Positions 23,717 to 62,886 of a DNA stretch of 64,000 nucleotides are shown piece by piece; positions within the stretch are counted from its first letter, which is position 1, and every line of letters starts with the position of its first letter. The position numbers and the translations under genes are program-made. The notes beneath the pieces were generated by a model. That model worked only from the letters and a program-made list of their open reading frames with translations, did not search any database and was not told the DNA's origin. Where the stretch lies: positions 13,806,387-13,870,386 of the forward strand of contig CP154954.1 of NCBI GenBank assembly GCA_039621445.1. Reading direction: 5' to 3'. Origin of the DNA: Euglena gracilis (lineage: Eukaryota).

Positions 23717-24024
23717 TGTGTACCAGGCGTATGCTTCTGTCCCCTTCCGTTGAGGAAGTTAGGATGGAAGCAGATCCTATTAGGATTTCCTAATGGGTGC
23801 CCCTTCTCTCTCCACAGGTGGTATTCTGTTTGTCTTTCCTTTTCTCCGGACCGGACTTGGTTATCCAGTCCGTCCTCCCTGCATTGCTCTGTGCTTTGCT
23901 TCTTGGGAAGTGGGAAAAGGGATTTTACTGTTACTCTGATTTTCAGTTCCCAAGTAGGTGCGCCAAGGCGAAAGCGAAGGCTTTTGGGAATTGGGAATTG
24001 GGAATTGGGAATCAGACGTACACT
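23717..24024 (+). repeat. 5' LTR
   Basis: tgtgtaccaggcgtatg...atcagacgtacact. Matches 39867-40174 except for 2 substitutions (tgGga/tgTga; actCtg/actAtg). Confidence 0.97.
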
Positions 24025-24046
24025 TGGTAGCAGATTTGTTCGATCC
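24025..24046 (+). promoter_or_regulatory. Primer-binding site complementary to initiator tRNA-Met
   Basis: TGGTAGCAGA directly after the LTR is the complement of the ...UCUGCUACCA 3' end of eukaryotic tRNA-iMet. It is followed by TTCGATCC, complementary to the iMet T-arm GGAUCGAA. Confidence 0.9.
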
Positions 24047-24238: not shown

Positions 24239-26818
24239 ATGCAAAGCACAGGCCCCAACCATCAATTCAACTATGCCTTATTCCAGGCATCATTGCAAGA
24301 CATTGACCAAGAAAATGGGGATTGGAAGCTTTTATGTGAAAGTGCTTCCAGTTCCCACGCCGATGAGGCACAGTTGGTTCAATTGTCACAATTGCAACAT
24401 TTGTCATCATTGACAGTGGTCGGCGATGAGCCTTCCACTTCATTGGCTTCAGAGGCTAATGCGGCCTCTTCCGCACTCACCTTGCCACAACGGGGGTATT
24501 CGCCTCTGTCTGCGGCAATGGTGCAGCTGCGCACACCGGAGAAACCCGTGGTGATTCCGCCACCGGGCTTCTCTGGTGATGGTGGGCTAGAATCCTCGTG
24601 TTTCTTTCAACCACCACCCGCTCTTCCACCGGCAAGCCCTTATAGAGCTTTGCCACCACCACCCGATCTTGGGTGCTATCCCGCACTACCTTGGCAACCG
24701 GAGACTCGCCTAGTGGTACCGGAATTCTCCGGTATGTCCCAACCCATGGATGGCTATGGGAAGGGCACTGGTGAGCTCCTTACCGCTGGGGATGTGGAGG
24801 ATATCGTTGCTCGGCTTCCAGGGGATCACCCCCTTGTGAGGCAGTTCAACCATGTGCAACAATGCGTTGCAGACTGTGCAACCGCACTCAACAAAGTGCT
24901 CCAGTTTGATGAGGACAACCAAAAACATATCTTCACCAAGCTGGAATACTGCTGGAATTACTTGCAGGAAGTTGGCAAATATTGCCAGAGGAATTTCGAA
25001 AGTGCGGGTATTGACCTTGCAAACTTTCGGGAAACCTTTGACAAAATGTGCCAACAACTCCCGCAAAACTTCCGGCAAATTAGTGAATGCATGCATGAAG
25101 CGGAAACGCGGAATGACTCCAAGTTTCTGCACTTGCATGACTCACTACAACAGTTATCGGGACAAATGGAGTCCTGTTCATCCGCGTTGTTGCATTTGCA
25201 ACAACAGTTGCATGCACGAGATTCCTCGTCTGCAACAACACACAGTGGTGGATTTGTGTCTATGGACCATTTCACCACATTGTCCGCAACTTTCCATGAA
25301 TCGCAACACCGCATTATGCAGTTGTGCGATGAAACGGAAAAGTTTCGGCAATTCCAGTCACAAGCAAACGGGAATTTTGCTCCCCACACGTATGTGCGGC
25401 AGTTAGAGGAGCGACTTTCCCGTTTGGAGCAGAAAACCTGCTATTGTGACGCGAATCAGGTTGGATTATCCAATCTGAGCGCGAAAGTAGCGGAAGTAGC
25501 ACAACGGCAGGATTCCCTGCAGTTGCAGTTGCAATCCGACATTGGCGGGGTTAACTCGGCCATTGCGGGTTTGCAACAAAGCTATTCCGCACTTTCCCAC
25601 CGAGTTCCGGACATTAGCGGTATTCAGACTGCTATTGGGGAACTCCAGACCCCGTATGCATCGGTGTCTACCAAAGTAACGGAAATGCAGTATCTACCTG
25701 CAGGTTCCAGTTCTCGGATTACCGAGAACCCTGATTTCAGGGCATTTTATGACAAAATGCTCACTAACAATCAGGAAACCTTGCAAGATTTTTGCAACAG
25801 CCTATTACGGGTTGAGGAATCGGTGAATCGGAATGCCCGATCCACGCAAAGTGAGATTACCAGGTTGGATGAGCGAATTTCCGCGTTTTTGGATAAGCCA
25901 CAACCCGGAAATTTGCCCATGGGTACCACAACCGTGTTGTCGGATAACCCTGCACCGGTTGCACCCACCACCACACCAACCAAGGTGACATCACCTTTGC
26001 AGATTCTCTCAAATGCTGTAAAAGCATTAATGGGACAACTCCAATTATTGGATAAGTCTCACGGGAAACTTGTCCAAGATGTTACCGGAATTTCCGAAAG
26101 GATTCCGCACTTGGATGACTTTTCCCGTTACCGCAAGCGTATTCGCGCTTTGGAGGATGAAGTTGACCGTATTTGCGGCCAACTCCAACTCGTTGAGCAT
26201 TTGGAGCAAAGTGTGCATGACTTGTCTGTGGGTTTGGATAATGTGTCCAACCAACAGCAGGTTTCACACCGCAATTCGGCAGTATGCATTGCCGAAGATG
26301 CGCCAAATGTTCCAGAGTCGCGTTCCCATAACCCGGCTCTGGGTGCACATGCACCACCACCACCCGTGTCCCGAGTGTCACAATCCGCGATTCCGCGAAT
26401 TGTGCCACCATTGGCCTTGTCCACAACCCAAACCCAGTTTTCGGACGAATTTCCCATTACGGGAACCGAATTTGCGGAAAACACGGCGATTCCGCCAAGT
26501 CTCCACCAAGAAATTCGTCATTCCATGCTTGTGCGTGGAATGAGCCAAACCCGACACCGGGAGTGGGTCACATGTTGCATGCGCGACATACCCCCACACC
26601 GGAGAGTCTCCCTATTACGGGTGACCAACAGGGTTTGCGACCGGATTTCCGGTACCAGGATTCACCTTCACCAGAAATTTCGCGATTCGGACAAGAATCC
26701 GGAAAGGATACGCTTGGTGCTCGAGCGTACCCAGGCCCAAAACCGCGGAATACCACCGAGGGTCAACGGGTTTTTCAGAAAGACTTCAAGGGCACCATCG
26801 CAATCGCGAATAAGGTGA
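24239..26818 (+). CDS. gag: Gag N-terminal part: Pro-rich segment and long coiled-coil region
   Basis: 859-codon ORF starting ~200 nt after the PBS, rich in Q/L/E heptads. It overlaps the next ORF (-1 frame). The last ~100 aa are probably out-of-frame run-on. Confidence 0.75.
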   Translation: MQSTGPNHQFNYALFQASLQDIDQENGDWKLLCESASSSHADEAQLVQLSQLQHLSSLTVVGDEPSTSLASEANAASSALTLPQRGYSPLSAAMVQLRTPEKPVVIPPPGFSGDGGLESSCFFQPPPALPPASPYRALPPPPDLGCYPALPWQPETRLVVPEFSGMSQPMDGYGKGTGELLTAGDVEDIVARLPGDHPLVRQFNHVQQCVADCATALNKVLQFDEDNQKHIFTKLEYCWNYLQEVGKYCQRNFESAGIDLANFRETFDKMCQQLPQNFRQISECMHEAETRNDSKFLHLHDSLQQLSGQMESCSSALLHLQQQLHARDSSSATTHSGGFVSMDHFTTLSATFHESQHRIMQLCDETEKFRQFQSQANGNFAPHTYVRQLEERLSRLEQKTCYCDANQVGLSNLSAKVAEVAQRQDSLQLQLQSDIGGVNSAIAGLQQSYSALSHRVPDISGIQTAIGELQTPYASVSTKVTEMQYLPAGSSSRITENPDFRAFYDKMLTNNQETLQDFCNSLLRVEESVNRNARSTQSEITRLDERISAFLDKPQPGNLPMGTTTVLSDNPAPVAPTTTPTKVTSPLQILSNAVKALMGQLQLLDKSHGKLVQDVTGISERIPHLDDFSRYRKRIRALEDEVDRICGQLQLVEHLEQSVHDLSVGLDNVSNQQQVSHRNSAVCIAEDAPNVPESRSHNPALGAHAPPPPVSRVSQSAIPRIVPPLALSTTQTQFSDEFPITGTEFAENTAIPPSLHQEIRHSMLVRGMSQTRHREWVTCCMRDIPPHRRVSLLRVTNRVCDRISGTRIHLHQKFRDSDKNPERIRLVLERTQAQNRGIPPRVNGFFRKTSRAPSQSRIR

Positions 26819-28215
26819 AACCCCAGTGGGACGGTGATCCAACCACATGGAGACAGTTTTTCCGGGACTGGGAGTACTACTGGGCATTGAAAGGGCCAAC
26901 CCACGACACAAACCCGGAGGTGATCAAGATGGAATTCATCGATTGCCTCCCTAGGGATGAGAAGGAGCGCGCGCGACAACTTGTCATTCGCTACCGCGTT
27001 TCCTTTCATGACCTGGTGGAGCAATACGCTTCCACCAGTTCAAGTTTGGTCGCTAGGATTACCCTAGAGACCAAGTGGCGGCAATGCGCCCCACCGGACC
27101 GCAAGTGGAAGTCCATTGACCTTTGGTACGCCAAATGGTTAGGACTTGCCGCTGAAGTGGATGAACTCAGTGGAAAGCAAATGCGCGAACAGTTTGACGC
27201 TGTTCTCATGCATTTCACGCCTAGCCTCATCAAGGATATCCACCGTGAGGAGTTGGCGAGTCATCCAATGACTCTTGACCAACGCTGGAACTACGTTTCC
27301 AAGCAATTGAAGCTATCACAGCTTCTTGGTCAGATTCAATCCGCGTATAACGCACACCCAACCGCTGGATTACCGGCTGGTTCAGTGAACGCGTTGCAAA
27401 AATCACTGGTTTCACCCACTTCACCAACCACGGGATCGAAAACGCGATACCCGCGTTCTTCGGACCAAGCCACGGATAAAGTGTGCTTTTTGTGCAACAA
27501 ATCGGGACATATGTCTCGGGAATGTCCTAATCCTGAAGCGCGTAAGCGTATTCAGAGTCCGCGAGGCTCCACCTCATCACGAGGTTCGGGTTCCTCCGCG
27601 TTTTCACGCCAATCGGGCAATTCACGGTCATCGGGTCCCCGTTCCGGTGGTATTAGCCCCCGGATCCCGTTCCGCGATGAGCGGAAACACGGTACCCCTC
27701 GGGGTAGGTCACCCGGTGCCCCGGCCAAGAAGCGTGATTCTCATCGCGAGACATCGCGATCGCGTTCGCGAAGCGGATCATCTTCTTCGCGATCCTCATC
27801 GGGAAAACCCCGATACACCGGTCATGGTCGACGGGATACCCGGTCACCACGACGGTTTGACGGGAAATCGGGAAACCGATCCCCCCGTTACCCAGAATCG
27901 CGACACAAATCGCGGTGTTCGCTTTGTGGATCGAGTGATCACCACTCATCCAAATGTCCGCGTTCTCGTTCTCCCCGCCCTGGCCAACGTCATCGCGGTA
28001 TGAATCGCGGTGACAAGGGTCACTCCTCCAACCGCCATAAAGTCGGTTTCAAGATATCTTGTTTGGAGGATGACACCCCGGCTTCGGGCAGGGAGGGGGA
28101 TGAGACCACGGATACCGATTTCGACGAGGCCCGCATGGCGGTGCGCACGTTGAAATCCGTTTATACCTCTAAAAGGCCCATAGCCGGCTATTCGGCCGGT
28201 TCGGACCTGGAGTAG
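26563..28215 (+). CDS. gag: Gag C-terminal part: capsid-like domain, two CCHC zinc knuckles, RS-rich nucleocapsid region
   Basis: KPQWDGDPTTWRQFFRDW capsid-like start; CFLCNKSGHMSREC (27484-27525); CSLCGSSDHHSSKC (27916-27957); R/S-rich basic tract. Confidence 0.9.
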   Translation: MGHMLHARHTPTPESLPITGDQQGLRPDFRYQDSPSPEISRFGQESGKDTLGARAYPGPKPRNTTEGQRVFQKDFKGTIAIANKVKPQWDGDPTTWRQFFRDWEYYWALKGPTHDTNPEVIKMEFIDCLPRDEKERARQLVIRYRVSFHDLVEQYASTSSSLVARITLETKWRQCAPPDRKWKSIDLWYAKWLGLAAEVDELSGKQMREQFDAVLMHFTPSLIKDIHREELASHPMTLDQRWNYVSKQLKLSQLLGQIQSAYNAHPTAGLPAGSVNALQKSLVSPTSPTTGSKTRYPRSSDQATDKVCFLCNKSGHMSRECPNPEARKRIQSPRGSTSSRGSGSSAFSRQSGNSRSSGPRSGGISPRIPFRDERKHGTPRGRSPGAPAKKRDSHRETSRSRSRSGSSSSRSSSGKPRYTGHGRRDTRSPRRFDGKSGNRSPRYPESRHKSRCSLCGSSDHHSSKCPRSRSPRPGQRHRGMNRGDKGHSSNRHKVGFKISCLEDDTPASGREGDETTDTDFDEARMAVRTLKSVYTSKRPIAGYSAGSDLE

Positions 28216-28251
28216 GGAAGCCCGAGGTCCGAGGGCACGGACCTCTGGGCT
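28213..28251 (+). promoter_or_regulatory. Candidate gag-pol stop-codon readthrough signal (UAG-G + hairpin)
   Basis: TAG GGA AGCCC-GAGGTCCG-agggca-CGGACCTC-t-GGGCT: a 13-bp GC-rich stem 3 nt after the gag stop. Protease continues in the same frame. Confidence 0.65.
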
Positions 28252-28830
28252 GATGAACAGATGGAGGTAGGACCTGATCAACCCTGCCCCCCCTGCCCAT
28301 CTGCCTTTCTGGTCGGTACCCGGAAAATTTTCGTGTCCACCACCCCCCACTCGAACTTTCCGCTCGGAATGTTGTGCAAAGTAGGAAAGGGTTCATGGGA
28401 AAGCTGGCAAGAAAACGTATTTTCGCCAGACCCTTCACTTTGCTTACCCCCCATGGAACTTTTGGTCCAAGCGGAAATCAAAATCCAAAATTTTTGTGCA
28501 AAAGTCAAAATTCTCATTGACACTGGTTGTCGCATTGCACTACTTTTTCGGTTCGGGTTGATACCAACCCCCCTCTTGGTGAAAGCTAAGAAGCCGATCA
28601 AAATTACGACGGCTGATAACACCCCCATGTGCGGTGGTGACTTGGGATGATTTTTGGACATTGTCCTACCCCTCATCCCCAAGCACCACTCACACCCCCC
28701 CCAACCGCAAAATTTTCCGGATACCTGAGGATATGAATCCGGAATCCATGGTTCTGACGTAATTCTGGGACACACCTTTTTACGTCAGCACCGGCTGGTA
28801 GTGGATTGCCACTCCCACGGTTTGTGCACA
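28216..28830 (+). pseudogene. Retropepsin-type aspartic protease with two in-frame TGA stops
   Basis: KILIDTGC (D at 28519), IKITTADN flap, and DVILGHTFLRQHRLVVDC in the same frame after TGA at 28648 and 28726. Confidence 0.9.
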
Positions 28831-29661
28831 TCACCATTCTCTTCATTGCCCCCCAAACCCTCATCACCTGTGGCGTCAACCGCGATAGCCACCAATTTTT
28901 CCACACTGTTTTCGAAAACTTTTACCCCGTTACCAACCACACCAACCAACGTTTTCTACACCGGGTGTACCGAGAAAGTTCACCCCCTGCCCGTAGACAC
29001 ACCAACTTCCGTTCCCCATGAGGCAGGGCAAGCGAGTAGCGGTACCCCCCTCGTTTCACTGGGTTACAAGACGAAAGCCCAAAGGCCTGAAGTGATCACG
29101 ATGTCGAGTAGTCGCCCAGCTGCATCAATACCCCGTTTTCCACCAGATGTATCGCTTTCAGATACATCTGTACACCCCCCAGCAGCTTCAAAAGCGCATC
29201 CGAACTTTTACACACACCCTCACCAGACCAACATGCGCGACCAGGACCACTACTCCGAAACTTCCTTCCAATGTGTGCACTGTAGGAGAATTTCTGCCCA
29301 GCCAGATTTCGATTGTGGATGTCTAGTCCAAACACCAACACTATTCCCGATTTCGTGTAACCATACACTTGGTTGCGGTTCGCAATGCGCGACCGTACAT
29401 CAAGTGCTCCAACAACGAGGTATTGCCTTGTTGTTTGGGACCGCGAAATCCGTGTCACACACCTCCCCCAATTCCATCTGGCATGATATGGACTGGGTAT
29501 ACACCCATCCAACCCATCAACCCTCGGGAATGCCCCTAGGGAGTGTGGATGACACACCCTTGACCTATGTTTACGGATCCCTGAATTGCGTTACCGCTCT
29601 TCAGCCCGCGAACCAGGTCGACACCTACGCGATGCGCGTATGGAACGCATTCAATTTTGGT

Positions 29662-30066
29662 CAATACCGTATTTTGGAGGAATGGTTCTCCAAAATCGCG
29701 GGTTTGGCTGATACCTTCGATTTGTCGTTGGAAATTGATGCGTTTTCATCAAAAGCGCATGCGCGCTTGTCGCAATATTGGTCGCGACATACCAACGCAT
29801 TTCTGAAATTTTGGGGTGATACCGTGCTATGGATGCACCCTCCCCCAAAACGTGTCCCGGATGTGGTGGATAAAATCCTCCGCGATGAAGCGCGAGGAGC
29901 TCTCCTCATACCCGTCAATCCGAACGCGGATTGGTTTCACCAACTATCCTATGTGTGTTTCCATTGGTGGGATTTCCCCGCTGATGTACCACTATTTGAG
30001 GATTTTTGTGGTATATTATTACCACCGGTTAAAGAAATCATTTTTCGCGTTTGTTTCTTTGACGCA
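29662..30066 (+). CDS. Dam/DIRS-type DNA N6-adenine methyltransferase-like domain within Pol
   Basis: LEIDAFSSKAHARLSQYWS-(3)-NAFLKFWGDTVLWMHPPPKRVPDVVDKILRDEARGALLIPVNPNADWF follows the motif order of DIRS MT domains as I know them: xDxFAS, DAF..W, xPP, V.KI, P.WP...WF. Confidence 0.8.
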
Positions 30067-30249
30067 TTCGGAATATCCGATGTGCGTGTGCCAAGATACC
30101 TTGGTACGGATGGGGATGCCACACCCTCAACTCAGATTTCTGCGGTCATTGAGAGTGCGGACCAACACCCCAAGTCTGCTGACTATTGTTCGCGAATTAC
30201 TCGTGAATTCCATGGTGTACTGGATAATCCAGTTTACGCCTGCGACATC

Positions 30250-31210
30250 GACCCCGCGATTCGCCGTCCGTTCGGTGTTTGCAAAATCGAGCTCAAGGAT
30301 GGCGCTAAACCCATGCACTGGAAAATTTTCCGTTGTTCGGGTGAACACGAACAAGCTCTCAACGAGATGATTGAGAAGCTCATCCAGCGGAAGTGGATTA
30401 TCCCTTCCAAGAGCGAGTGGACATCACAAGCTTTTGTGGTGCCCAAACCCGCTGACCAGTCTGGTCAGAAAAAGTGGAGACTAGTGCTGGATTACCGGTA
30501 TCTGAACTCCCAAACCAAGGATGACCCCTTCCCGTTACCGCTGATCGAGGATTTGATCACCAAACAATCGGATAACCGGTTGTGGTCAATCTTTGATCTG
30601 GAAGACGGCTTCCATCAGATGCATTTGCATCCTGATTCGCAACCGTACACGGCATTCGTGACATCCAAGGGTGTGTACCAATGGATGGTACTCCCCATGG
30701 GTGTTAAGAATGGCCCAGCCATGTTTCAACGCATGATCCAGTGGGTTTTGCGCGATTTACCGTTTGCTCTGGTGTACATCGATGATGTAATGGTGGGAAC
30801 CCAACCGCCATCCGCGAAATCGGGCGAGGATATCCTCGAACCGCATTATCGCGATGTGCGGGCGGTATTATCCGCGTTCAAAAAGCATTTGCTTTTTGTG
30901 AAGGGTTCCAAAATGCACCTGTTTCGCAAAATTATTAAGTTTAGCGGGCATATCCTGAGCAACGGGCAGCGTAAAGCCGCACCCAGTAAGATGGAGGCCA
31001 TTAAGAAATGGACTCCTGAGGTCATTAAGATCTTAACGCATTTAAAGGGATTTTTGGGATTAGCCCAATATTACGCGATTTACATGAAAGATTTCGCGAA
31101 AATCGCGGTACCCCTAACCCGACAACTCAAAAATCGGACACCCGATAACGCAAAAGTCATTTGGGATGTCCAAATGCGCGAGGCCTTGAATAAACTCAAG
31201 AAACTTACTC
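30250..31210 (+). CDS. pol: Reverse transcriptase (3' part of ORF 28801-31302)
   Basis: WRLVLDYRYLNSQT, PFPLPLIEDL, FDLEDGFHQM, TAFVT, LPMGVKNGPAMFQR, YIDD (30775-30786), LKGFLGLAQYY. Ty3/Gypsy-type. Confidence 0.97.
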
Positions 31211-31219
31211 CTCGAGAAC

Positions 31220-32317
31220 GTGGTTCTCGATATCGCGGATCCATACAAACCGTACGTCCTGGAAGTCGACAGCAGCGATTACGCTGTTGGCGGGGTTCTT
31301 AGCCAGCATAATGCGGCGAATGAACTCCGACCTGTGGCTTTCTTCAGCAGGAAGCTACAGGGCGACAACAGGAAAGGACAGGTTAAATGGAGCATTCGCG
31401 AAAAGGAGACATATGCCATTGTGCTTATTCTCCAGAAATTCCGCAGCTGGATAGCCAGCAGCTTGGTCCACATACTCGTGTTGACGGATCATGAGAGCCT
31501 TCAGCACTGGTATACCGAGGACCTAAACAAGGCCATGTCATCAGTGGGCAGAAGATGCCGATGGCATGAGTTCTTGAGCCAGTTTAACCTGGTGGTTATC
31601 TATACCCCAGGTCACACGCAAAAAGTTGCGGATCCTCTCAGCCGAGCCCCCTGGTATTATCCTGGGAACCCGGATGAGGGTGATGCGACTTTTCATGGCA
31701 GCCATGAGGCTGACCAGTTCGCACGTCGATCCGACGCTGCGGACAACATTCTCGATTCATCACCCGTTTCCCGGGTATATCGCAGCATCGCCATTTCACC
31801 ATTGCGTGGAAGGCGCCGGCGTGGACGCACTGCCGGACCCCGTCGCATTACGCGTACGGAAACTCCTACCCCCCTATTTTTCCGCGAATGGGATTATTCG
31901 CGTGACCCTATATATAGTATCATTGTGAATAGACTTCGTAATGGTGAATCCATAGAGAATTACTCTCTATCACCATTGCGGCTTATTTTCCGGAATGATT
32001 CTGGTTATAAATATTGTATACCCCAAGACCTGGTTGATGATGTGATTTTGAGCTATCACAACCATGGTCACCCTGGGGCCCCCAAACTTCTTTCACTAGT
32101 GGGTCGCAGATATTGCACAACCCTGAGTGAAAAATATTTATATTCGCGCTGTTTGCGAATTTTGCAACGGTGCCAGATTTGTCAGGCTGTGAAACCGCGC
32201 AGCGGTACCCCCCCTGGTACGATGGACTTTTTCCCCGTACCACCGGACATTTTTACGTCCCTCTGCATGGATTTTCTCGAACTTGAACCTTGCAAAGGAT
32301 CAGATGACCAAATTTAG
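31220..32317 (+). CDS. pol: RNase H and integrase HHCC zinc-binding domain (after a 1-nt frameshift at ~31205)
   Basis: YVLEVDSSDYAVGGVLSQ, PVAFFSRKL, REKETYAIV, LTDHESL, VADPLSR; then HNHGHPG...CQICQAVK and SLCMDF. A TAG at 32315 interrupts the integrase core. Confidence 0.95.
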   Translation: MVLDIADPYKPYVLEVDSSDYAVGGVLSQHNAANELRPVAFFSRKLQGDNRKGQVKWSIREKETYAIVLILQKFRSWIASSLVHILVLTDHESLQHWYTEDLNKAMSSVGRRCRWHEFLSQFNLVVIYTPGHTQKVADPLSRAPWYYPGNPDEGDATFHGSHEADQFARRSDAADNILDSSPVSRVYRSIAISPLRGRRRRGRTAGPRRITRTETPTPLFFREWDYSRDPIYSIIVNRLRNGESIENYSLSPLRLIFRNDSGYKYCIPQDLVDDVILSYHNHGHPGAPKLLSLVGRRYCTTLSEKYLYSRCLRILQRCQICQAVKPRSGTPPGTMDFFPVPPDIFTSLCMDFLELEPCKGSDDQI

Positions 32318-33324
32318 GATTACGTTTTTGTTGTCGTCTGTCGGCTGAGTGGGTACATAGTAGCCATTTCATGCCGGAAAGCAGGGTTGACAGCCCAAAT
32401 TTTGGCATCCATATTCCTGGAGAAATGTATCTGCTTAATGGGTTTACCGAACGAAATCGTGACTGATCAAGATCACTTGATCTCTTCGCGGTTTTTCACA
32501 ACTTTGTGCGGTTTACTCGGCATTGAGCAGCATTTTTCCATTATATACCGCCCGAAAGGCAATGGTAGAGCCGAGGCAGCCGTGAAATCCGTTGTCAATA
32601 TGCTTCGCCTTTCACTGGCTGACTCGGGTAAGAATTGGTTATCCGTTCTTCATTGGTGTTTATTTTACATCAATACCTTGCCAGGGTTGGTATTACCACG
32701 CTCACCGTACAAAATTGTTTTCGGACGAGACCCTCCGGCCATAGGGGATATCCCCTCGGAGAGACCCGCCCGAAGTAGCGTCAGCTGTGAAACGTGGTTT
32801 GCAGAAGTGGAATTACTCCGCTCTGCAGTCCAATCACGTATCACAGAAATTCATTTCAACAAACGGAAATCGTTTTTACAGAACTTCAACACACCTGTGT
32901 ATAGTCCAGGTGACCGCGTGTGGGTACGGAATAACCGCACCCGCATGCAATCTTCCAAGCTAGATCCTCTTTGGCTCGGCCATGCAAAATTTTGGAGAGG
33001 TTAGGTAGTAGCGGGCGATATAAAGTTGCCTTGCCCAACGGGATTGACGACGTCCATATGGACGACTTCAAACCGTACCTAAGCCCCCCAGACGGAAAAG
33101 CTATCCCCTGCCTATATTTCAAGCCCCGTTCCAGATTACCTGAAACGGACGACTTTGTGGTCGATAAGATAATAGACCACAAGGTCGACAGGGGTGTGCA
33201 CTACTGGAAAGTTCGCTGGAAAGGGTATGGGCCAGAGGAGGACACTTGGGAGCCAGCATCCAGTTTTGTTGGATATTACCAGCAGGATTGGAAGCTGTGG
33301 AACAGGCGCAATAACATAACATAA
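32318..33324 (+). pseudogene. pol: Integrase DDE core, GPY/F-like region and C-terminal chromodomain (frameshift at ~32980)
   Basis: IVTDQD and GNGRAEAAVK catalytic motifs; PGDRVWV...[13 protein letters not shown]; chromodomain [34 protein letters not shown] from 33154. Confidence 0.95.
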
Positions 33325-33537
33325 ACATAAACACTTTCTGAAACGATTTCGTTTTGGAGAATGTGTGTGTTTTATGTGAATGTTTCGCGTTTATACCCCC
33401 CCCTGCACTTCTTTATTTCTCTACCTTTCTCGCAGAGTTTTTGATTAAGATAGAAGCCTACCTTTTTCAGTGCACCAGCACTCAAAGCGACAGACAACAA
33501 GGTTACCCTTCGTTGTCGTCGTCGTTCGGGTAGCATC

Positions 33538-36500
33538 ATGCTGCCTGGGCGCGGACCTGGACCAGGTCCACCATGGCCGCAGCCTTCTGGCGCGCCATAC
33601 CCCCAGTACCCTCAGTATGCTGAGGCCCCGATTCCGGGTGCCCCACATGCTGAGAGGGTTTCAGCCCCGGTATTCGCCGCGGCTACCAGCAGCCGGTCCG
33701 CATATGCGGTACCAGATCCATCTGCCGTCCAGCAGCCGGCACCTCAGCCACCAGCGCAGCGCAGATCGCGCCTGCCCCCATATGCGGGAGAGATGATCTT
33801 CCGCACTACGGAGACGTTGGAGCGGGCGATGCGTATGTGCGCACACCCCCCAACGGAGCCCTTTATGCAAGCCCTTTGGGATGCATACTGTGCTCAGTTG
33901 TTGGTGGTAGCCAACACCCCTGTGGCTCAGTGGTGTCCCTGTGGTCAACCCCTGATGACGGGGAGACGGTATTTCTCGTCGGCATCCGATTCCGGATTCG
34001 AGCCTGGCGAGACCATGGACCTGGGCGTGTATGTGCCGCCCATGCTGCAAACGCAGACGCCGGTGGGATCCCACACCGTGCATATGCGTGAGCACACGCC
34101 CCCACCGGTAGGTGAGGCTGTGCATGTCCTACCTGGGATGACGAGAATTATTGCTCGCCCGCCCTCGCCGCAGCGCATGCCGCCGCGCGAGCCGCCAGCG
34201 GAGCACTTTGTCTCGCGGTACGCGACGCACGCGGATTACCCGCGCGGCGCACGCGTGCTCCCAGCCGGACAGTCGGACGTGCCCCCTGAGGCATACGTCC
34301 AACACATATTCATGCACTGGATGCCACAAGCATCATCGGTCGCCCCTGTCCCTGGCGTTGAGCCACGGCGGCAGGCGGAGCCCATAATGGTGGAGGATGA
34401 ACCTCCCCACAGTGAGGCAGCTCGACCGCCCAGTGCAGCTCCTGTCCAGACTGGGGATATCCCCCGTCGGCAGGAGACTCCCTACTATCACATGGCACCT
34501 CCGGGAACCGAGCAGGATGAGCTTGCTCGGCACTTCCTGCAGGAGCCAGTATTCGCGTCTGAAGAGCACCGGACGAGGTATTACTCCTCTCTGGCTGCCC
34601 TTCAGGGCCGTGGATACACCCCATACCATCCGTACCAGCCGCAGCTGCGGGTGGCAACCCCGGTATTACCCGGTGAGCCCCCGGCAGGTGTGGCAGTATT
34701 ACCTGCCACCCTGAAGCGCGACCGGACTACGGAGAACCTTACCCCACAGCCCAGGCGACCCAGCCCACGGGACGCGGAAGGCGGTGTGGCGATGCAGGTG
34801 GAAGCCAGCCAGGATACCCCGGCTGGACGACCACCGGCAGAGGCACAGGTGGCGATGAGCCGTCCTGTTGCCGCAATGCCACCGCCGATCCCTCCGGTAT
34901 GGAAGGAGCCACGACCCCCCGCGTCGAAGCCAAGCCCACGCCAGACTCCTCATCATCGCCCAGCCACGCCATCACCGCGACGTGCAGCGGAGCGGCTAGA
35001 TCCCTCCCCAGAGATGGAATGGGAAGGAACCGAACCGACTCCTGCGGCACCGAGCGCCCGACCTTCTGGTATTCGCCATACGGGAAAGGATGCCGGCAAG
35101 GCCGAAGGCAAAGGCAAGGGAGAAGGCAAAGGCGTGGCCGGCAAAGGGAAGGGTGAGGGTAAAGGTAAGGGAACAGCACGTGAGGAAGAAGAAGAACCAG
35201 CAGAAGTCCTCTCGGACTTTGAGCATATGCTCAGGTTCAAGGAGGAGCTGGAGGATGAAGGCTGGCGAATGCAGCATGATTACCATGTTGCAGGAAACCG
35301 CCCCGTCACCCCTCCACAAGCAGTCATCGATGTGGTATTACGCCACACCGAGAACCGAGTCAGACTATTCCATTACGGAATAGATCTGTACGCCTTCGAA
35401 GGTGAAGGTGACAGACCCTTGCTGGATGCACAGCCAGGTTTCTGGGAGCTCTGGTTTTGGCTGGGATACCCCTGCCAGAATTGGGGTCTCTTCAGCGATT
35501 CCACTGGTCGCAGTTACCTGCACCAGTTGGGTTTTCGGGACCAGCGTGTGTTGGCCCGAAGGCTGAAGGCAGTCTTCGACTGTATTCATACAGTCGGACC
35601 CCTCGGCGTGCAGTGGAAATTCTACCCACTACACCCCGACATCGAACACCTGATCGAGGTGTTGTGGTGCAACAACCTCCAGGTGTGGCTGGTGAGCCAT
35701 TACGGCTCCACCTTCCGCGTTAAGCGTGTTTCCCTGGCTTACCCGCAGAGGTATGACCTCTGCTGTAAGTACTGCCGGCAGGAATTTCCTGTCGACTTCT
35801 GGGGATTCGGCGTGCGCGGAAGTCCTCCACCGCCTCGGGATAACCCGGGACTGGAGATGGGACGCCGCATGCTTATGCATGTGTGCCGCGACGCCCCGGA
35901 TGTCCAGGGCAAAAGTCGCCGCGTCCACAAGCAGCGTATTTTTATGCTGCAGCAGTTCTGGTGGCGAGCCTGGACTACCTATGTCATGGAGGTGTATATA
36001 CATCTCCGTGACCCCCAGGACGATAGGCCTGGAATGGAAAGCCTGCCACCGGATTACGGTGACGCCATCGAGGGTCCTCGTCGTCGGATTCTCGGCCACC
36101 TGCGCCCCAACTGGCACCTGGCTGATATCAGCCTGGAGGAACATTTGCGGCGGCAGTTTGGCGGTACCCTCGACCGGGAGGTATTCCTTCCGCTGATGTG
36201 TCACCGGAAGGCCATCCTCGAACAGCGTATGCTGATTCTGGCATGCGTTCAGGAGTTCGAGAAGGGCTTTTTCGAGGTCTGGGAAGACACGCGTTACCGC
36301 GACTTCCTGGGCCCGAACAGGCCTGCCAACGCCTGGGTGCAGCCATCATGGCCGCCACCCTGGCCCAACAGCGCCAGCAGCAGTACGCTGGCCTTTTACA
36401 GGCTGGCGGACGCTCAGGGATGCCGATGGCACCCGACGATCCTCGTTCGCCCGAGGATCTGCGGGCCTTCATCGCCCCGGAGGATGAACCTCTGGCGCGA

Positions 36501-36702
36501 AGGAGACGTGAGGCGTCAGTCGCTTCCACCACCGCGATTCCGCGGCGGGAGGAACGCGACCGCAGCCCATCCGTCACCATCCTGGAGGCAGCGCCGCCGT
36601 CTCCGACAGGAACGGCTGTATCATTTGTCTCTGCCCCGCGAGCGGCAGGGGAACGATCGGTTTCCCCGGCCCCCGCGGTGGCTCCCGTCTGTCCACCCGT
36701 AG
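33538..36702 (+). CDS. Extra sense ORF, part A (unknown function; Pro-rich, GKG repeats, Cys/His-containing globular region)
   Basis: 1054-codon ATG-initiated ORF between pol and the 3' LTR. It probably joins part B through a 1-nt indel near 36360. Confidence 0.8.
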   Translation: MLPGRGPGPGPPWPQPSGAPYPQYPQYAEAPIPGAPHAERVSAPVFAAATSSRSAYAVPDPSAVQQPAPQPPAQRRSRLPPYAGEMIFRTTETLERAMRMCAHPPTEPFMQALWDAYCAQLLVVANTPVAQWCPCGQPLMTGRRYFSSASDSGFEPGETMDLGVYVPPMLQTQTPVGSHTVHMREHTPPPVGEAVHVLPGMTRIIARPPSPQRMPPREPPAEHFVSRYATHADYPRGARVLPAGQSDVPPEAYVQHIFMHWMPQASSVAPVPGVEPRRQAEPIMVEDEPPHSEAARPPSAAPVQTGDIPRRQETPYYHMAPPGTEQDELARHFLQEPVFASEEHRTRYYSSLAALQGRGYTPYHPYQPQLRVATPVLPGEPPAGVAVLPATLKRDRTTENLTPQPRRPSPRDAEGGVAMQVEASQDTPAGRPPAEAQVAMSRPVAAMPPPIPPVWKEPRPPASKPSPRQTPHHRPATPSPRRAAERLDPSPEMEWEGTEPTPAAPSARPSGIRHTGKDAGKAEGKGKGEGKGVAGKGKGEGKGKGTAREEEEEPAEVLSDFEHMLRFKEELEDEGWRMQHDYHVAGNRPVTPPQAVIDVVLRHTENRVRLFHYGIDLYAFEGEGDRPLLDAQPGFWELWFWLGYPCQNWGLFSDSTGRSYLHQLGFRDQRVLARRLKAVFDCIHTVGPLGVQWKFYPLHPDIEHLIEVLWCNNLQVWLVSHYGSTFRVKRVSLAYPQRYDLCCKYCRQEFPVDFWGFGVRGSPPPPRDNPGLEMGRRMLMHVCRDAPDVQGKSRRVHKQRIFMLQQFWWRAWTTYVMEVYIHLRDPQDDRPGMESLPPDYGDAIEGPRRRILGHLRPNWHLADISLEEHLRRQFGGTLDREVFLPLMCHRKAILEQRMLILACVQEFEKGFFEVWEDTRYRDFLGPNRPANAWVQPSWPPPWPNSASSSTLAFYRLADAQGCRWHPTILVRPRICGPSSPRRMNLWREGDVRRQSLPPPRFRGGRNATAAHPSPSWRQRRRLRQERLYHLSLPRERQGNDRFPRPPRWLPSVHP

Positions 36703-39050
36703 GTGGAGACCAGGAACTTCCTGAGGAGGAAGGTGAGAACGTGGAGGATATCCTCTACGCTGCTCTGCATGCTCCGGCACAGCCTAGGCCAGACGGAGCA
36801 CCCGCAGGGGATATACCTGTGGCTGCTACGCCTGCTCCAATGGCTGGGCCTCTAGCCGAGGTGACTGGTATGGTCGTCGAGGATATCCTCGAAGAACCTA
36901 CCAGCCCCGCAGTATGCACCTCATTAGGAGGCCGTGTGCTCGGCGCCGTAGTCACCGGCATTACTGCCGTGGCTGCTGCACTAGCGCCACGAGGTGGAGG
37001 CGTAGCATCAAGCTCCGCCGCTGAGGTCGTGGAGACGCCGGATGTCGGTGTCCCCGCACCCCCATCTCCGGCAGCAGTGCAACCACCTTCAGGGGATGAA
37101 CCCCAGCCGACAGAGCCATCTGTCGCACCAGCTACAGCGGAGGATCAACCTCCCTTCGCACCTGCGCCAGCGGTTGTGGAACATCAACCTCCTAGACCGG
37201 ATGTCGAAATGGAAGTGGAGGAGATACCCCCACGACCACCGACACCGCGCAGGGTCCCTGCCGTCCCGAGGACAATGGCAGAGTTTCTGGGAGCGCCAGC
37301 GCCTGTGGAAGCACCGATTCCGATGACGACCACAGTGCCACGCCTCGTCGGACAGGATGAACCTGCTCGGCGACGGCCGGCTGAACAACCCCAGGAACGT
37401 GTGCCGACCCCTCGGAGCGTCATGCGCGACCCAGCGGTCAGGATGCCCGCTTCGCCCAGACGGCAAACGTCTACTCCGGCACCATCGGCTCCTGATACCA
37501 GGAGTAAGCCGCAGGCGTCGCCTCCTGATTCCGGGAGTGCGAAGCCGAAAGGAGGCAAACCGGGTGCTGCACCCTGTAAGCCCCCTGCCAAAGGCAGTGA
37601 TGGAAAACCACCACCGAAAGGTGGCGCTGGATGTCAGACTGGCGGACAGCCAAAAGGCCCTACGACAATGCACGACTATTCGGCCGTTGCATCGTCCGGG
37701 TACGGCCAGAGCAAACCGAAAGGTAAGGCTCGTGGTCGACAGGCCCAATCTTCCACCGGATCGACGGATGAGGAGCAGGATGAACCTGCTTCTCCTCCCG
37801 TGTCTGCGGATGCCCAGCTCTGGACTCAGGATATCCTGACCAGACTAGGCACCGTGGAAGAGAGGACGAAGAAACTGGCTGCTATTAGGCACCAGAAAGG
37901 GTCACTGAATCAATGGATTCAGCCCCTCTTCGTCCGAGGAGAACCTTTCCATTATGTCCCGGAACATACCTGGACATTCTGGAATAGGCGCTCACCAAGA
38001 GTACTGGCACAGTACTTTGGTGAGGACTGCGTGTTGGATTTCCAGCACGGCACGTCCTTTGCCTGGACGTGCACCGTGTGCCACCATGTGCGGCACAACC
38101 AACCGCTTGTGCATGTGTGCAAGCGGCAGGTGCAATCCTCGTGGTTCCATCACAGGGCATATGTGCCGAACTGTGTGGCGCTCGTATGTGGCGAGTGCCT
38201 GAACGCGTGGAAGCACAGCTTGAACTACTCCTACAGTGAGAATGCTCACGACAGGGATATCCATGCCTTGTGCATCAACTGTATAGGAGCCAAGTTCGTG
38301 CAGACTGCTGATGGAGCAGTCACCACCATTGTCCCACAGCACTGGGAGACACTGGAGAAGTGGAAGAAGGAGTACAAGCAGGTGGAAGGCCGCCTGAAGC
38401 ACTCCGACTTCCGAAAGGTAGAAAGCTACCGCCACACGGGAATGGCCCGTGAGTTCCAGATCGACGCTGGGGCAATGCGCCTCGCCGTCGAGGAACACGC
38501 CAAGGTAATAATGCCTTACCTCTGGTCTGATGGCGACTGGGAGACACAGGTTTACCCCCTGTTCTCCAAGCGTCAGCATGGCGGATACGCCTTGCCACTG
38601 TGGCCTCCTGAAGAACACGATTTGGTGGACTTCAGAGGTTGGTTGGCGGCTGTATTACGGCCCCATACCGCAAGAGCTCGGACAGCGAGGTGGATGTATG
38701 ACATCAACTTCAAGCAGACCCCGGGGATGCCCCCGCAGGTGCCTGCGAATCATCCCCGGATGAATTACATCATCTGGCCGGTGATGCTGCCTAGAATTTT
38801 CTGGGAGCAGCTCCAACGGTATCTTCAGCATCATGCTGAACGTACCAGGGAGAAGCTACCGGATAATTGGATCAAGGACTGGGAGACCCCTTCCTTTGAT
38901 GTCAACGATCCGGAGCTCAACACCATTCGGAGTGAATCAGCTCCGCCGCGTTCTCCACGCCAACTGGAGTTGGTTGAGGACCCATTAGGGGACCCCCAAC
39001 ACGACTACTGGCGTGAGGTGCGCGAACGCCCAGCCGATAAAGGCAGGTGA
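36198..39050 (+). CDS. Extra sense ORF, part B (Pro/Ala-rich linker + Cys/His/Trp-rich C-terminal domain)
   Basis: 950-codon ORF in the -1 frame relative to part A, with CTVC, HVC, CGEC and CINC motifs. Confidence 0.8.
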   Translation: MSPEGHPRTAYADSGMRSGVREGLFRGLGRHALPRLPGPEQACQRLGAAIMAATLAQQRQQQYAGLLQAGGRSGMPMAPDDPRSPEDLRAFIAPEDEPLARRRREASVASTTAIPRREERDRSPSVTILEAAPPSPTGTAVSFVSAPRAAGERSVSPAPAVAPVCPPVGGDQELPEEEGENVEDILYAALHAPAQPRPDGAPAGDIPVAATPAPMAGPLAEVTGMVVEDILEEPTSPAVCTSLGGRVLGAVVTGITAVAAALAPRGGGVASSSAAEVVETPDVGVPAPPSPAAVQPPSGDEPQPTEPSVAPATAEDQPPFAPAPAVVEHQPPRPDVEMEVEEIPPRPPTPRRVPAVPRTMAEFLGAPAPVEAPIPMTTTVPRLVGQDEPARRRPAEQPQERVPTPRSVMRDPAVRMPASPRRQTSTPAPSAPDTRSKPQASPPDSGSAKPKGGKPGAAPCKPPAKGSDGKPPPKGGAGCQTGGQPKGPTTMHDYSAVASSGYGQSKPKGKARGRQAQSSTGSTDEEQDEPASPPVSADAQLWTQDILTRLGTVEERTKKLAAIRHQKGSLNQWIQPLFVRGEPFHYVPEHTWTFWNRRSPRVLAQYFGEDCVLDFQHGTSFAWTCTVCHHVRHNQPLVHVCKRQVQSSWFHHRAYVPNCVALVCGECLNAWKHSLNYSYSENAHDRDIHALCINCIGAKFVQTADGAVTTIVPQHWETLEKWKKEYKQVEGRLKHSDFRKVESYRHTGMAREFQIDAGAMRLAVEEHAKVIMPYLWSDGDWETQVYPLFSKRQHGGYALPLWPPEEHDLVDFRGWLAAVLRPHTARARTARWMYDINFKQTPGMPPQVPANHPRMNYIIWPVMLPRIFWEQLQRYLQHHAERTREKLPDNWIKDWETPSFDVNDPELNTIRSESAPPRSPRQLELVEDPLGDPQHDYWREVRERPADKGR

Positions 39051-39858
39051 GGTGTCTGTGAGCGCCAATGCGGCGTTCAGCACCCTCGTCAGGTATTCGC
39101 CTGACACCCTGTTTGGGTATTCGCCCGAACAACCCCTTCGAAGACCCTTTGCGGTATTCGCCGCTAGTAAGTTCCCACCGGGATGCTGCCATGTGCAGGA
39201 TTCCGTGTGCATGCATGCACACCCCTCTCCCCTCTCCCCTCTCGCGGGCGTGCGACACGCAGCGCACAGGGCCGACGGCCTCTTTTCATTTCCCTTTCTT
39301 TTCTTTTCGGCCGTTTGAGGCCTTAAGGCTGCCAGACAGCACAACTTTTTGGCCTAAGCCAACCCCCCACTCCTCTCTACTTTCCCCCCGGGGCAAATGC
39401 TGTCGCCGGCAGTTGGTTTTGTAGAGTAGGATTTCCTTTTGCGTAGTCAGGTTTGACTGGCCATGCGCCCTGCCCAGGTTTGACTGGTCAGCCCCCTCCT
39501 TCCACACCCTCCCCATGGGTTTTCCTGGAATGCCCATGGACCCAACCCCAAGTGCCTTGGGCACACCCAAACTGGGTGGATGGGTTTGCTTGGCAAGGAA
39601 ACCTGCCAGCCCCATTTTCCCAAGTGGGCTATAATATACTATATACCCATAAGCCACCGCCGAATATGTGAAACCATTTTGCGCGTTTTGGGCTTTTTGG
39701 GTCCCCTCCTTTCCGCCCCCCCCCTTTGAGTGGACCCCTGTGCGACGGAAAGGGCCCCTGTGGATGCGCCAGGGTGCACCTCCCTCAGACCAGGTCTGTG
39801 TCCGAAATCCCTGTGGCCAGAATGCCTGGTCCAAAGGGGAAATCAGGCATAGCCCTGT

Positions 39859-39866
39859 GAGGGGGA
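39859..39866 (+). promoter_or_regulatory. Polypurine tract
   Basis: GAGGGGGA immediately 5' of the 3' LTR. Confidence 0.75.
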
Positions 39867-40174
39867 TGTGTACCAGGCGTATGCTTCTGTCCCCTTCCGT
39901 TGAGGAAGTTAGGATGGAAGCAGATCCTATTAGGATTTCCTAATGGGTGCCCCTTCTCTCTCCACAGGTGGTATTCTGTTTGTCTTTCCTTTTCTCCGGA
40001 CCGGACTTGGTTATCCAGTCCGTCCTCCCTGCATTGCTCTGTGCTTTGCTTCTTGGGAAGTGTGAAAAGGGATTTTACTGTTACTATGATTTTCAGTTCC
40101 CAAGTAGGTGCGCCAAGGCGAAAGCGAAGGCTTTTGGGAATTGGGAATTGGGAATTGGGAATCAGACGTACACT
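39867..40174 (+). repeat. 3' LTR
   Basis: 308-bp direct repeat of 23717-24024, followed by ACGTC, which also precedes the 5' LTR. Confidence 0.97.
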
Positions 40175-45066: not shown

Positions 45067-45239
45067 GTTCTGAGCCATACACAGTACTATGCTGGGTGGT
45101 GATCCTAAAAGGGCCAACGGCCTGAATTAGGATTCCCACGCTCTACTGAGCAAAGCCTTATTCTGCTTCTCCTCTCCACAGGCGGTGCGCTTTGATATTC
45201 GCTTTTAAATATAAGTGTAGTATAGGAGAGTATATTCTA

Positions 45240-62885: not shown

Positions 62886-62886
62886 T

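What the first reader, a model, noticed from the sequence alone, without database searches (positions are those of the whole stretch)
33538..39050. ~1800-aa accessory ORF in the env position that is not env-like
Seen: two overlapping ORFs (1054 and 950 codons) join into one of ~1837 codons if one C is added in the run near 36358-36360 (WPPP|LAQQRQQQ). I see no signal peptide or transmembrane anchor. Disordered Pro-rich blocks alternate with two globular regions. Inference: a retained intracellular accessory protein (anti-silencing or regulatory) of unknown family.
Basis: partly seen in the sequence, partly recalled or inferred. Interest (0 to 1): 0.72.

Follow-up and report, generated by a model that had tools for sequence, protein, structure and literature searches.

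The report
Orphan third gene in a giant retrotransposon
A 16.5-kb chromodomain LTR retrotransposon carries, where retroviruses keep env, a real ~1,840-codon gene for a non-secreted protein of no known family; its function is unknown and this copy of it is broken.

Summary
The two long overlapping frames are real: 1082 and 974 codons stop to stop, against at most 387 in 300 shuffles. They lie between pol and the 3' LTR of a 16,457-bp Ty3/gypsy chromovirus at 23717-40173, whose LTRs are 99.35% identical.

The frame break is a one-base length difference at 36431, not at 36358-60. Contigs from three other sequencing runs are continuous in frame there.

The protein has no signal peptide and no convincing membrane anchor. 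It has three Cys/His-bearing globular modules, not two, separated by Pro-rich disordered blocks. Each block ends in a Lys/Gly-rich stretch followed by an acidic one.

No piece matches Pfam, NCBIfam or PDB sequences, and the predicted folds are too poor to compare. A full HMMER scan of 1.84 billion proteins found 13 fragments at 96% to 26% identity. These share a conserved YPQxY-CxxC-DFWGF motif, so at least two modules have been kept for a long time.

Pol also carries a Dam-like domain, which places the element among the recently described DAM-LTR retrotransposons; that preprint does not mention such a gene.

Verdict: a genuine, family-wide accessory gene that is not env. Its function (probably nuclear, nucleic-acid or chromatin binding) is inferred only. 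Selection and expression were not measured.

The parts
23711..23716 (+). target-site duplication, left copy (TACGTC; 5 or 6 bp, because the T is ambiguous)
   Evidence: The same hexamer lies at 40174-40179.
23717..24023 (+). 5' LTR
   Evidence: blastn 23717-24024 against 39867-40174: 308 bp, 99.35% identical, 2 mismatches.
24025..24035 (+). primer-binding-site-like TGGTAGCAGA just inside the 5' LTR
   Evidence: Read from the sequence. The resemblance to an initiator tRNA 3' end is recalled, not tested.
24239..28215 (+). oversized gag (~1,330 codons), with two CCHC knuckles at 27484 and 27916. This copy changes frame at 26553. TAG at 28213.
   Evidence: ORFs; zf-CCHC E 3.7e-5; one-base length difference at 26553 against other runs; coordinates.
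28216..33330 (+). pol. It holds a protease DTG (28519), a Dam-like domain (29701-29940; motif at 29824-29847), RT (30442-30954), RNase H (31238-31585), an integrase zinc finger (32018-32200), the integrase core (32321-32554) and a chromodomain (33154-33264). In this copy it is broken by stops at 28648, 28726 and 32315 and by frame changes at 31201/2 and 32979.
   Evidence: Pfam: RVT_1 1.6e-26, RT_RNaseH 1.9e-24, Integrase_H2C2 1.3e-7, rve 8.6e-7 (below the cutoff), Dam 2.4e-4 (below the cutoff); Chromo 3.4e-11. Frames; length differences.
33416..33435 (+). splice-acceptor-like site (pyrimidine tract followed by CAG) 103 nt upstream of the ORF3 ATG; a second, weaker one ends at 33471
   Evidence: One of only 4 such sites on the + strand of the 16.4-kb element, two of which are the LTR copies. 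The first ATG after it is 33538. Its use as an acceptor is inferred, not observed.
33538..36431 (+). ORF3, part upstream of the break. It comprises a Pro/Gln/Tyr-rich N-terminus, N module ~33790-34017, disordered block 1 (34018-35199) ending in a Lys/Gly-rich then an acidic stretch, and globular module 1 (~35200-36400) with CxxC at 35764.
   Evidence: Translation; composition; homologues P0003-P0014. P0003 starts at the same Met.
36431..36432 (+). frame break of ORF3 in this copy (one-base length difference against other copies)
   Evidence: table 4: X15, X16 and X17 each 1 of 1 contig; X1 21 contigs, depth 91,594 of 330,367. Context.
36432..39050 (+). ORF3, part downstream of the break. It comprises disordered block 2 (36432-37799), with a borderline hydrophobic stretch at 36930-36986 and ending in a Lys/Gly/Pro-rich then an acidic stretch, and globular module 2 (~37800-39047) with CxxC at 38070, 38187 and 38271. 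Stop at 39048-39050.
   Evidence: Translation; composition, hydropathy and motifs.
39051..39866 (+). 3' untranslated region, ending in the polypurine tract GAGGGGGA (39859-39866)
   Evidence: Sequence.
39867..40173 (+). 3' LTR

Best explanation
ORF3 is a genuine third gene of a high-copy, 16.5-kb Ty3/gypsy chromovirus family whose pol also carries a Dam-like domain. It encodes a protein of about 1,840 residues that is neither secreted nor an envelope protein. The protein has three Cys/His-bearing globular modules joined by long Pro-rich disordered linkers, and each linker ends in a Lys/Gly-rich basic patch followed by an acidic patch. In the window copy the gene is dead: one base of length difference at 36431 splits it. 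That copy's gag and pol are broken too.

Three further steps are inferred, not shown. First, the gene is translated from a subgenomic RNA that is cis- or trans-spliced at the acceptor-like site at 33435, as env mRNAs are. Second, the protein works inside the cell, most likely in the nucleus, as a zinc-dependent nucleic-acid- or chromatin-binding scaffold. Third, it serves the element's own cycle, for example in handling its RNA/DNA, in choosing targets or in escaping silencing. This would add to the chromodomain and Dam-like domain already present in pol.
For: The coding is real:
- 1082 and 974 open codons, against a mean of 222 and a maximum of 387 in 300 shuffles.
- GC3 of 0.67-0.68 and GC2 of 0.42 in the globular modules, a coding-type periodicity.

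It is part of the family rather than a private insertion:
- All 30 bins of 24030-39860 are covered in all four runs laid.
- X17 record 30 bridges 32869-35278 (integrase/chromodomain into ORF3).
- X15 record 16 bridges 37522-39697 (ORF3 into the 3' UTR).
- X17 record 31 bridges the break (35851-37153). All.
- 14 DNA runs of one organism label hold 0.61-0.72 of the sampled words of ORF3.

Other copies are in frame at the break: X15, X16 and X17, 1 of 1 contig each.

Long retention:
- A scan of 1.84 billion representatives gave 13 hits, at 96% (P0003, same start Met), 61-62%, 48%, 38% (N module) and 29%/26% (P0011, E 5.3e-8; P0013, E 1e-4).
- Y124, P125, Q126, C132, C135, D142, F143, W144, G145 and R149 are invariant across four sequences that are 25-46% identical.

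It is not env:
- The N-terminus is not hydrophobic.
- The best hydropathy in the last 400 residues is 1.07.
- No Pfam hit.

Subgenomic RNA: the acceptor-like site at 33435 is one of only 4 in the element, and 33538 is the first ATG after it.

Zinc or nucleic-acid binding:
- CxxC...HxC in module 1, with weak zinc-ribbon hits for the homologue P0011 (Lar, E 0.19 and 0.037).
- Three CxxC motifs plus many His in module 2.
- An RRRR run and Lys/Gly-rich patches.

Context: a chromodomain and a Dam-like domain in pol. PF05869 is recorded for 13 of the 120 listed pol relatives.
Against: - No function was tested, and there is no known domain to anchor the mechanism.
- No dN/dS could be computed, so selection is argued only from diverged protein fragments.
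- All 13 homologues are fragments without genomic context, so it is not shown that they are transposon-borne.
- Module 2 has no homologue at all in the one search that covered it (which considered only proteins of 535-1705 aa).
- In X1, the organism that holds the family at very high depth, only 28% of the counted depth at 36431 shows the in-frame length (91,594 of 330,367). The tool warns that not all differences were counted. Many copies may therefore share the break.
- Expression is not shown. The only certain RNA library (X17) is a metatranscriptome that may hold DNA, and no RNA joint at 33435 was listed.
- AlphaFold models are poor (pLDDT 49 and 34).
- GC3 differs from gag-pol (0.67 against 0.51-0.55), which fits a foreign or captured origin.
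- The hydrophobic stretch at 36930-36986 (1.72) could be a membrane helix.
Confidence: 0.55

Rival explanations
1. ORF3 is a captured host gene, or two fused host gene pieces, carried as a passenger by this family without any role in transposition.
For: GC3 of the globular modules (0.67-0.68) is clearly above that of gag-pol (0.51-0.55). The two halves repeat one plan (disordered block, Lys/Gly patch, acidic patch, globular module) but are not similar to each other (best E 0.89). Distant homologues P0011 and P0013 are stand-alone predicted proteins of 332 and 470 aa.
Against: No full-length cellular homologue turned up among 1.84 billion representatives, only 13 fragments. Several of these look like decayed multi-copy relics that diverge abruptly after the homologous part: P0004, P0009, P0012. 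A 5.5-kb passenger that stays open in a family with members from under 90% to over 99% alike is costly to carry unless it is used.
Confidence: 0.2
2. ORF3 is a degenerate or unconventional envelope or membrane protein, anchored by the hydrophobic stretch at 36930-36986.
For: It sits in the env position. It has one 19-residue stretch with Kyte-Doolittle mean 1.72 and an acceptor-like site upstream, as env genes have.
Against: There is no signal peptide. The stretch is Ala/Gly/Thr-rich and lies in the middle of a disordered block, not near the C-terminus. No env, fusion or glycoprotein family is matched.
Confidence: 0.05
3. The region holds two separate genes (ORF3 and ORF4), and the frame change at 36431 is natural or programmed.
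For: The break falls just after module 1, at the boundary of the two repeated plans. In X1, 72% of the counted depth at that place has the window's length.
Against: The contigs of three other runs are one base longer there, which gives a single frame. The downstream frame has no ATG near the break, and the upstream frame would end in 90 codons of Arg/Pro-rich out-of-frame text. Five similar one-base differences also break gag-pol in this copy.
Confidence: 0.07
4. The open frames are a chance product of GC-rich, non-coding sequence.
For: The region is 61% G+C, and the minus strand also shows ORFs of 208-251 codons.
Against: Shuffles never exceed 387 codons, against 1082 and 974 observed. Homologous proteins exist down to 26% identity.
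Confidence: 0.01

Closest known systems
env (ORF3) of errantiviruses such as Drosophila gypsy, and retroviral env
   Same: A third gene between pol and the 3' LTR, preceded by a splice-acceptor-like site (position and site seen here).
   Different: No signal peptide, no C-terminal anchor, no env family hit, and three to four times longer. The properties of env genes are recalled from general knowledge.
DAM-LTR retrotransposons and 'EpiLTRs' (bioRxiv 10.64898/2026.05.21.726589; Results read in full, the rest by term search)
   Same: A Ty3/gypsy-type element with a Dam-like domain and a chromodomain in pol. The preprint reports such chromovirus-like DAM-LTRs in green algae and Euglena gracilis.
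   Different: The preprint describes extra domains inside pol (Dam, in some cases a DNMT). It does not mention a separate large gene after pol: the word 'accessory' occurs 0 times and 'ORF' 4 times, none about such a gene. Here the catalytic triplet reads HPP, not the conserved NPP.
Extra ORFs between pol and the 3' LTR in plant Tat/Retand/Ogre elements (PMC11963269, abstract only, in the listing)
   Same: Very long elements with a long stretch 'from pol to 3' LTR' that holds additional ORFs of unknown function.
   Different: Those are non-chromovirus lineages of seed plants. No sequence comparison with them was made here.
Accessory genes of complex retroviruses (tat, rev, bel and the like)
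   Same: Intracellular, non-structural proteins encoded downstream of pol and expressed from spliced RNAs. This is an analogy in how it may work only.
   Different: Those are small proteins, with no homology. Recalled, not tested.

Membership tests
Retroviral / errantiviral Env | N-terminal signal peptide | tested here: not met
   The N-terminus MLPGRGPGPGPP... is Pro/Gly-rich. The highest hydropathy stretch in the first part of ORF3 lies at residue 112 (1.08). This was a simple hydropathy scan, not a dedicated predictor.
Retroviral / errantiviral Env | Membrane anchor near the C-terminus | tested here: not met
   The best 19-residue hydropathy in module 2 is 1.07. The only stretch above 1.6 (1.72) lies mid-protein at 36930-36986.
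Retroviral / errantiviral Env | Match to an env or fusion glycoprotein family | tested here: not met
   No Pfam family at E up to 5 for any of the four ORF3 pieces.
Ty3/gypsy chromovirus (the element as a whole) | LTRs with a target-site duplication, a primer-binding site and a polypurine tract | tested here: met
   308-bp LTR match, 99.35%. TACGTC on both sides, TGG... just after the 5' LTR, GAGGGGGA before the 3' LTR.
Ty3/gypsy chromovirus (the element as a whole) | Pol order RT - RNase H - integrase, with a C-terminal chromodomain | tested here: met
   RVT_1, RT_RNaseH, Integrase_H2C2 and rve, in this order. Chromo E 3.4e-11, 43.3 bits against a cutoff of 25.1.
DAM-LTR retrotransposons | Dam (PF05869) domain in pol | tested here: inconclusive
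   PF05869 E 2.4e-4, 21.2 bits, below the cutoff of 28.1. PF05869 is precomputed for 13 of the 120 listed pol relatives.
DAM-LTR retrotransposons | Conserved Asn-Pro-Pro catalytic triplet (as stated in the preprint) | tested here: not met
   The window copy reads VLWMHPPP at 29824-29847. Whether this is private to this dead copy is unknown.
ORF3 family (unnamed; defined here by P0001 and its 13 hits) | Module 1 motif YPQxY-x4-5-CxxC-x6-DFWGF-x2-R | tested here: met
   Invariant in the window, P0011, P0013 and P0007; also visible in P0014.
ORF3 family (unnamed) | Location downstream of a chromo-integrase in relatives | not testable with these tools
The locus scans found nothing.

The most novel reading that the evidence does not exclude
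ORF3 is a third, separately expressed part of an 'epigenetic toolkit' of DAM-chromoviruses. On this reading it is a large zinc-binding, disordered nuclear scaffold that works with the chromodomain and the Dam-like domain to place or protect new copies in a host that methylates nearly all CpGs. That would make it a new protein family that transposons use against silencing.
Probability: 0.15. Interest if true: 0.75.

Novelty: new variant of a known kind. Interest (0 to 1): 0.45.

Why it matters
Extra genes in LTR retrotransposons are rare, and they show how these elements deal with their hosts. This one is exceptionally large, about a third of a 16.5-kb element. It belongs to a family present at very high depth in its host. 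It sits in an element that already carries two chromatin-related domains and belongs to a class described only in 2026, and it has no recognisable relative. If it is under selection, it is a new transposon-borne protein family whose function can be tested directly in a unicellular host. If it is not, it is a large captured passenger, and an example of how far such elements can swell.

Tried and rejected
**Searches that found nothing**
- Word-indexed homologue searches, restricted to proteins of similar length: P0001 residues 580-960 (3545 candidates, none) and P0002 residues 600-974 (2806 candidates, none).
- Locus scans: viral contigs with P0002 (8 pattern matches, none confirmed); metagenome contigs with alignment A2 (229, none) and with P0001 (25, none).
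- No other DNA copies could be fetched, so no dN/dS and no check of ORF integrity copy by copy.
- No other copy or fragment of the element lies in the window (blastn and tblastn).

**Structure**
- Module 1 with an 8-row alignment gave pLDDT 49.1.
- Module 2 alone gave pLDDT 33.8.
- VIA-align against 48,161 chains gave a best Z of 3.7, all on single helices.
- Foldseek against PDB found nothing at E <= 0.001.
- With models this poor, these blanks say nothing about the fold.

**Host identity**
- 121 flanking ORFs gave no Pfam hit.
- No tRNA gene and no Rfam family were found in the window.
- An early guess of an oomycete 'Albatross' element (paper search, listing only) was dropped. The flanks are CpG-depleted and pol has a Dam-like domain plus a chromodomain.
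- A euglenid or green-algal host fits the preprint and a passage of PMC11252322 (passages only; 2.37 Gb genome, about 10% tandem repeats, abundant LTR elements). This is not shown.

**Other**
- The 8-base periodicity at the window's end is not a telomere. It is a (TGTA)n microsatellite.
- Short motifs in ORF3 (PPDY at 36046, PSAP at 37482) are expected by chance in Pro-rich sequence and were given no weight.
- Earlier findings of this scan: five look-ups, nothing.
- Depth along the element was not used to rank genes or to estimate copy number, as the tool advises.
Full report
**1. What is in the sequence**

The finding lies inside a complete LTR retrotransposon.
- **LTRs.** Two direct repeats, 23717-24023 and 39867-40173, match over 308 bp at 99.35% with 2 mismatches.
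- **Ends.** They are flanked by the same hexamer TACGTC. TGGTAGCAGA follows the 5' LTR, and GAGGGGGA precedes the 3' LTR.
- **gag.** Between the LTRs, on the + strand, lies a very long gag from 24239 to 28215, with two CCHC knuckles.
- **pol.** It holds a DTG protease motif, a Dam-like stretch, RT, RNase H, an integrase zinc finger, the integrase core and a chromodomain.
- **Class.** The element is therefore a 16,457-bp Ty3/gypsy chromovirus.
- **pol end.** Pol ends at stops at 33322/33328.
- **ORF3.** The reported ORF starts at the ATG at 33538 and ends at 39050. An 816-bp untranslated stretch lies before the 3' LTR. This is the env position.

**2. The observation**

The two frames exist: 33454-36702 (1082 codons stop to stop, 1054 from the ATG) and 36126-39050 (974 codons). 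They are not a by-product of the 61% G+C. In 300 dinucleotide-preserving shuffles the longest ORF on either strand averaged 222 codons and never exceeded 387. That range also covers the 208-251-codon minus-strand ORFs in the region.

**3. Where the frame really breaks**

I laid contigs of four public runs on 24030-39860. At 36431 the window differs by one base in length from the following:
- the only contig laid there in each of X15, X16 and X17;
- 21 contigs of X1.

This restores a single frame.

The same table shows one-base length differences in gag-pol at 26553, 31201/2, 32979, 33318 and 33438. This copy also has in-frame stops at 28648, 28726 and 32315. The window copy is therefore dead throughout, despite its young LTRs.

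Some of these places lie in short homopolymer runs and others do not. I cannot exclude assembly errors for some of them.

A point against a simple 'private mutation' reading: in X1 only 91,594 of 330,367 counted depth units at 36431 show the in-frame length. Contigs with loose ends pile up at some of the other length differences (31203, 33319, 34017 and 39076), and the tool says not all differences were counted, so this share is a lower bound. Even so, a large subfamily may share the break.

**4. Is ORF3 part of the family?**

Yes.
- All 30 bins are covered in all four runs.
- Single contigs bridge integrase/chromodomain into ORF3 (X17 record 30, 32869-35278), the break itself (X17 record 31, 35851-37153), and ORF3 into the 3' UTR (X15 record 16, 37522-39697).
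- 120,303 contigs of X1 were laid, from under 90% to over 99% alike, so the family is very abundant and of mixed age.
- 14 DNA runs under one organism label hold 0.61-0.72 of the sampled words of ORF3.
- No other copy lies in the window.

**5. Anatomy of the protein**

I read the protein as two unchanged pieces on either side of the break.

| Order | Region | Window coordinates | Features |
|---|---|---|---|
| 1 | N-terminus | from 33538 | Pro/Gln/Tyr-rich |
| 2 | N module | ~33790-34017 | small, Cys-bearing |
| 3 | Disordered block 1 | 34018-35199 | about 390 Pro-rich residues, ending in a Lys/Gly-rich run then a Glu run |
| 4 | Module 1 | ~35200-36400 | CxxC at 35764, with HxC 35 residues on |
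| 5 | Disordered block 2 | 36432-37799 | about 450 Pro/Ala-rich residues, ending in a Lys/Gly/Pro-rich run then an acidic run |
| 6 | Module 2 | ~37800-39047 | three CxxC, many His and Trp |

- The two halves follow the same plan but are not similar in sequence (best E 0.89).
- Neither is similar to gag or pol.
- There is no hydrophobic N-terminus.
- The only stretch above the usual hydropathy threshold (1.72) is an Ala/Gly/Thr-rich 19-mer in the middle of block 2, at 36930-36986.

**6. Relatives**

Nothing is matched in Pfam, even at E up to 5, in NCBIfam, or among PDB sequences.

A full HMMER scan of 1.84 billion representative proteins with the upstream piece gave 13 hits.

| Hit | Identity | Part matched | Note |
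|---|---|---|---|
| P0003 | 96% | residues 29-394 | begins at the same Met |
| P0004, P0005 | 61-62% | module 1 | |
| P0007, P0010 | 48% | module 1 | |
| P0006 | 38% | N module | |
| P0011 | 29% | module 1 | E 5.3e-8 |
| P0013 | 26% | module 1 | E 1e-4 |

- Several hits break off into unrelated text after the homologous part (P0004, P0009, P0012), as decayed repeat copies do.
- Across the window, P0011, P0013 and P0007 the motif YPQxY...CxxC...DFWGF..R is invariant.
- P0011 gives faint zinc-ribbon (Lar) hits over this motif.
- This graded series argues that the N module and module 1 have been kept over a long time.
- Module 2 was searched only among proteins of 535-1705 residues, without result.
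- Structure predictions were too poor to use (pLDDT 49 and 34), and fold searches returned nothing above noise.

**7. The element's lineage**

- The pol piece finds 157 relatives. The best are 78-86% identical and come from metagenome assemblies.
- 13 of the 120 listed relatives carry PF05869 (Dam) and some carry a chromodomain. Named hits (insects) are only 30-38% identical.
- In the window the Dam match is below Pfam's cutoff (21.2 against 28.1 bits).
- A 2026 preprint (10.64898/2026.05.21.726589; I read the Results in full and searched the rest by terms) describes such 'DAM-LTR' elements. They include chromovirus-like ones in green algae and Euglena gracilis.
- The preprint reports them absent from animals and land plants. 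It does not mention a large gene after pol.
- In the window copy the catalytic triplet that the preprint calls conserved (Asn-Pro-Pro) reads His-Pro-Pro.
- The host was not identified. The flanks have no recognisable genes or RNAs.
- The flanks are CpG-depleted (observed/expected 0.50-0.64, against 0.96 in gag-pol) and rich in microsatellites.
- This fits a host with heavy CpG methylation, as the preprint reports for E. gracilis, and a repeat-rich genome (PMC11252322, passages). It is a compatibility, not a demonstration.

**8. How it most likely works**

Shown:
- It is a real, family-wide gene.
- It is not env-like.
- It is of unknown family.
- It is broken in this copy.

Inferred from sequence:
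- Expression is from a subgenomic RNA. A pyrimidine tract plus CAG ends at 33435, one of only four such sites in the element (two of them in the LTRs), and 33538 is the first ATG after it.
- No RNA joint there was listed, which used contigs only.

Inferred from composition:
- It is an intracellular, probably nuclear, zinc-dependent protein that binds nucleic acid or chromatin. The long disordered linkers would act as a scaffold.
- In an element that already carries a chromodomain and a Dam-like domain, a role in targeting or in escaping silencing is the most attractive reading. Nothing here tests it.
- GC3 is higher in the ORF3 modules (0.67-0.68) than in gag-pol (0.51-0.55). This suggests the gene came from elsewhere, possibly the host, and keeps the 'captured passenger' rival alive.

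**9. Expression**

X17 is a true RNA library (a leaf-litter metatranscriptome) and holds contigs over the whole element, ORF3 included. It may contain DNA, and X15 and X16 are only guessed to be RNA. Expression is therefore not shown.

**10. Verdict**

The interpretation 'non-env accessory protein of unknown family' stands. 'Retained' is supported indirectly. The proposed function remains open. It is a new variant of a known kind, namely LTR retrotransposons with an extra gene, sitting in a newly described class of elements.

Noticed in passing
window 29701-29940 (motif at 29824-29847): Pol carries a Dam-like (PF05869) stretch upstream of RT. The match is below Pfam's cutoff in this copy, but PF05869 is recorded for 13 of the 120 listed relatives. 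The catalytic triplet reads HPP where the 2026 preprint reports a conserved NPP.
   Followed up: partly
window 24239-28215: Gag is about 1,330 codons, three to four times the usual size. The first ~800 codons give only weak coiled-coil-type hits (NPV_P10, Sec10_N). This may be a further unexplained gene part, comparable in size to ORF3.
   Followed up: no
window 26553, 28648, 28726, 31201-31202, 32315, 32979, 33318, 33438: This copy has at least five frame changes and three in-frame stops in gag-pol, although its LTRs differ at only 2 of 308 bases. Either a broken subfamily is being copied in trans, or some of these are assembly errors.
   Followed up: partly
window 1-23716 and 40174-62700: The flanks are CpG-depleted (observed/expected 0.64 and 0.50) while gag-pol is not (0.96). 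This points to a young element in a host that methylates CpG. No recognisable gene was found in 121 flanking ORFs.
   Followed up: partly
window 10817-11325 and 50432-50935: Direct repeats of about 510 bp, 88-95% alike and 39.6 kb apart, bracket the whole region. They could be the LTRs of an older element into which this one and other sequence inserted, or two solo copies.
   Followed up: no
window 62886-64000; 45214-45466, 47329-47581, 48815-49036, 49255-49534, 51068-51278: A (TGTA)n microsatellite of 1.1 kb runs to the window's end, and there are five (AGTAT)n arrays of about 45-55 units. There are also long G runs, and repeats 2.1-2.7 kb apart across 42863-47446.
   Followed up: no
window 39075, 39490, 34014: Three-base length differences against other copies lie in the 3' UTR and, in frame, in ORF3 (at 34014 the homologue P0003 has one extra Met).
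   Followed up: no
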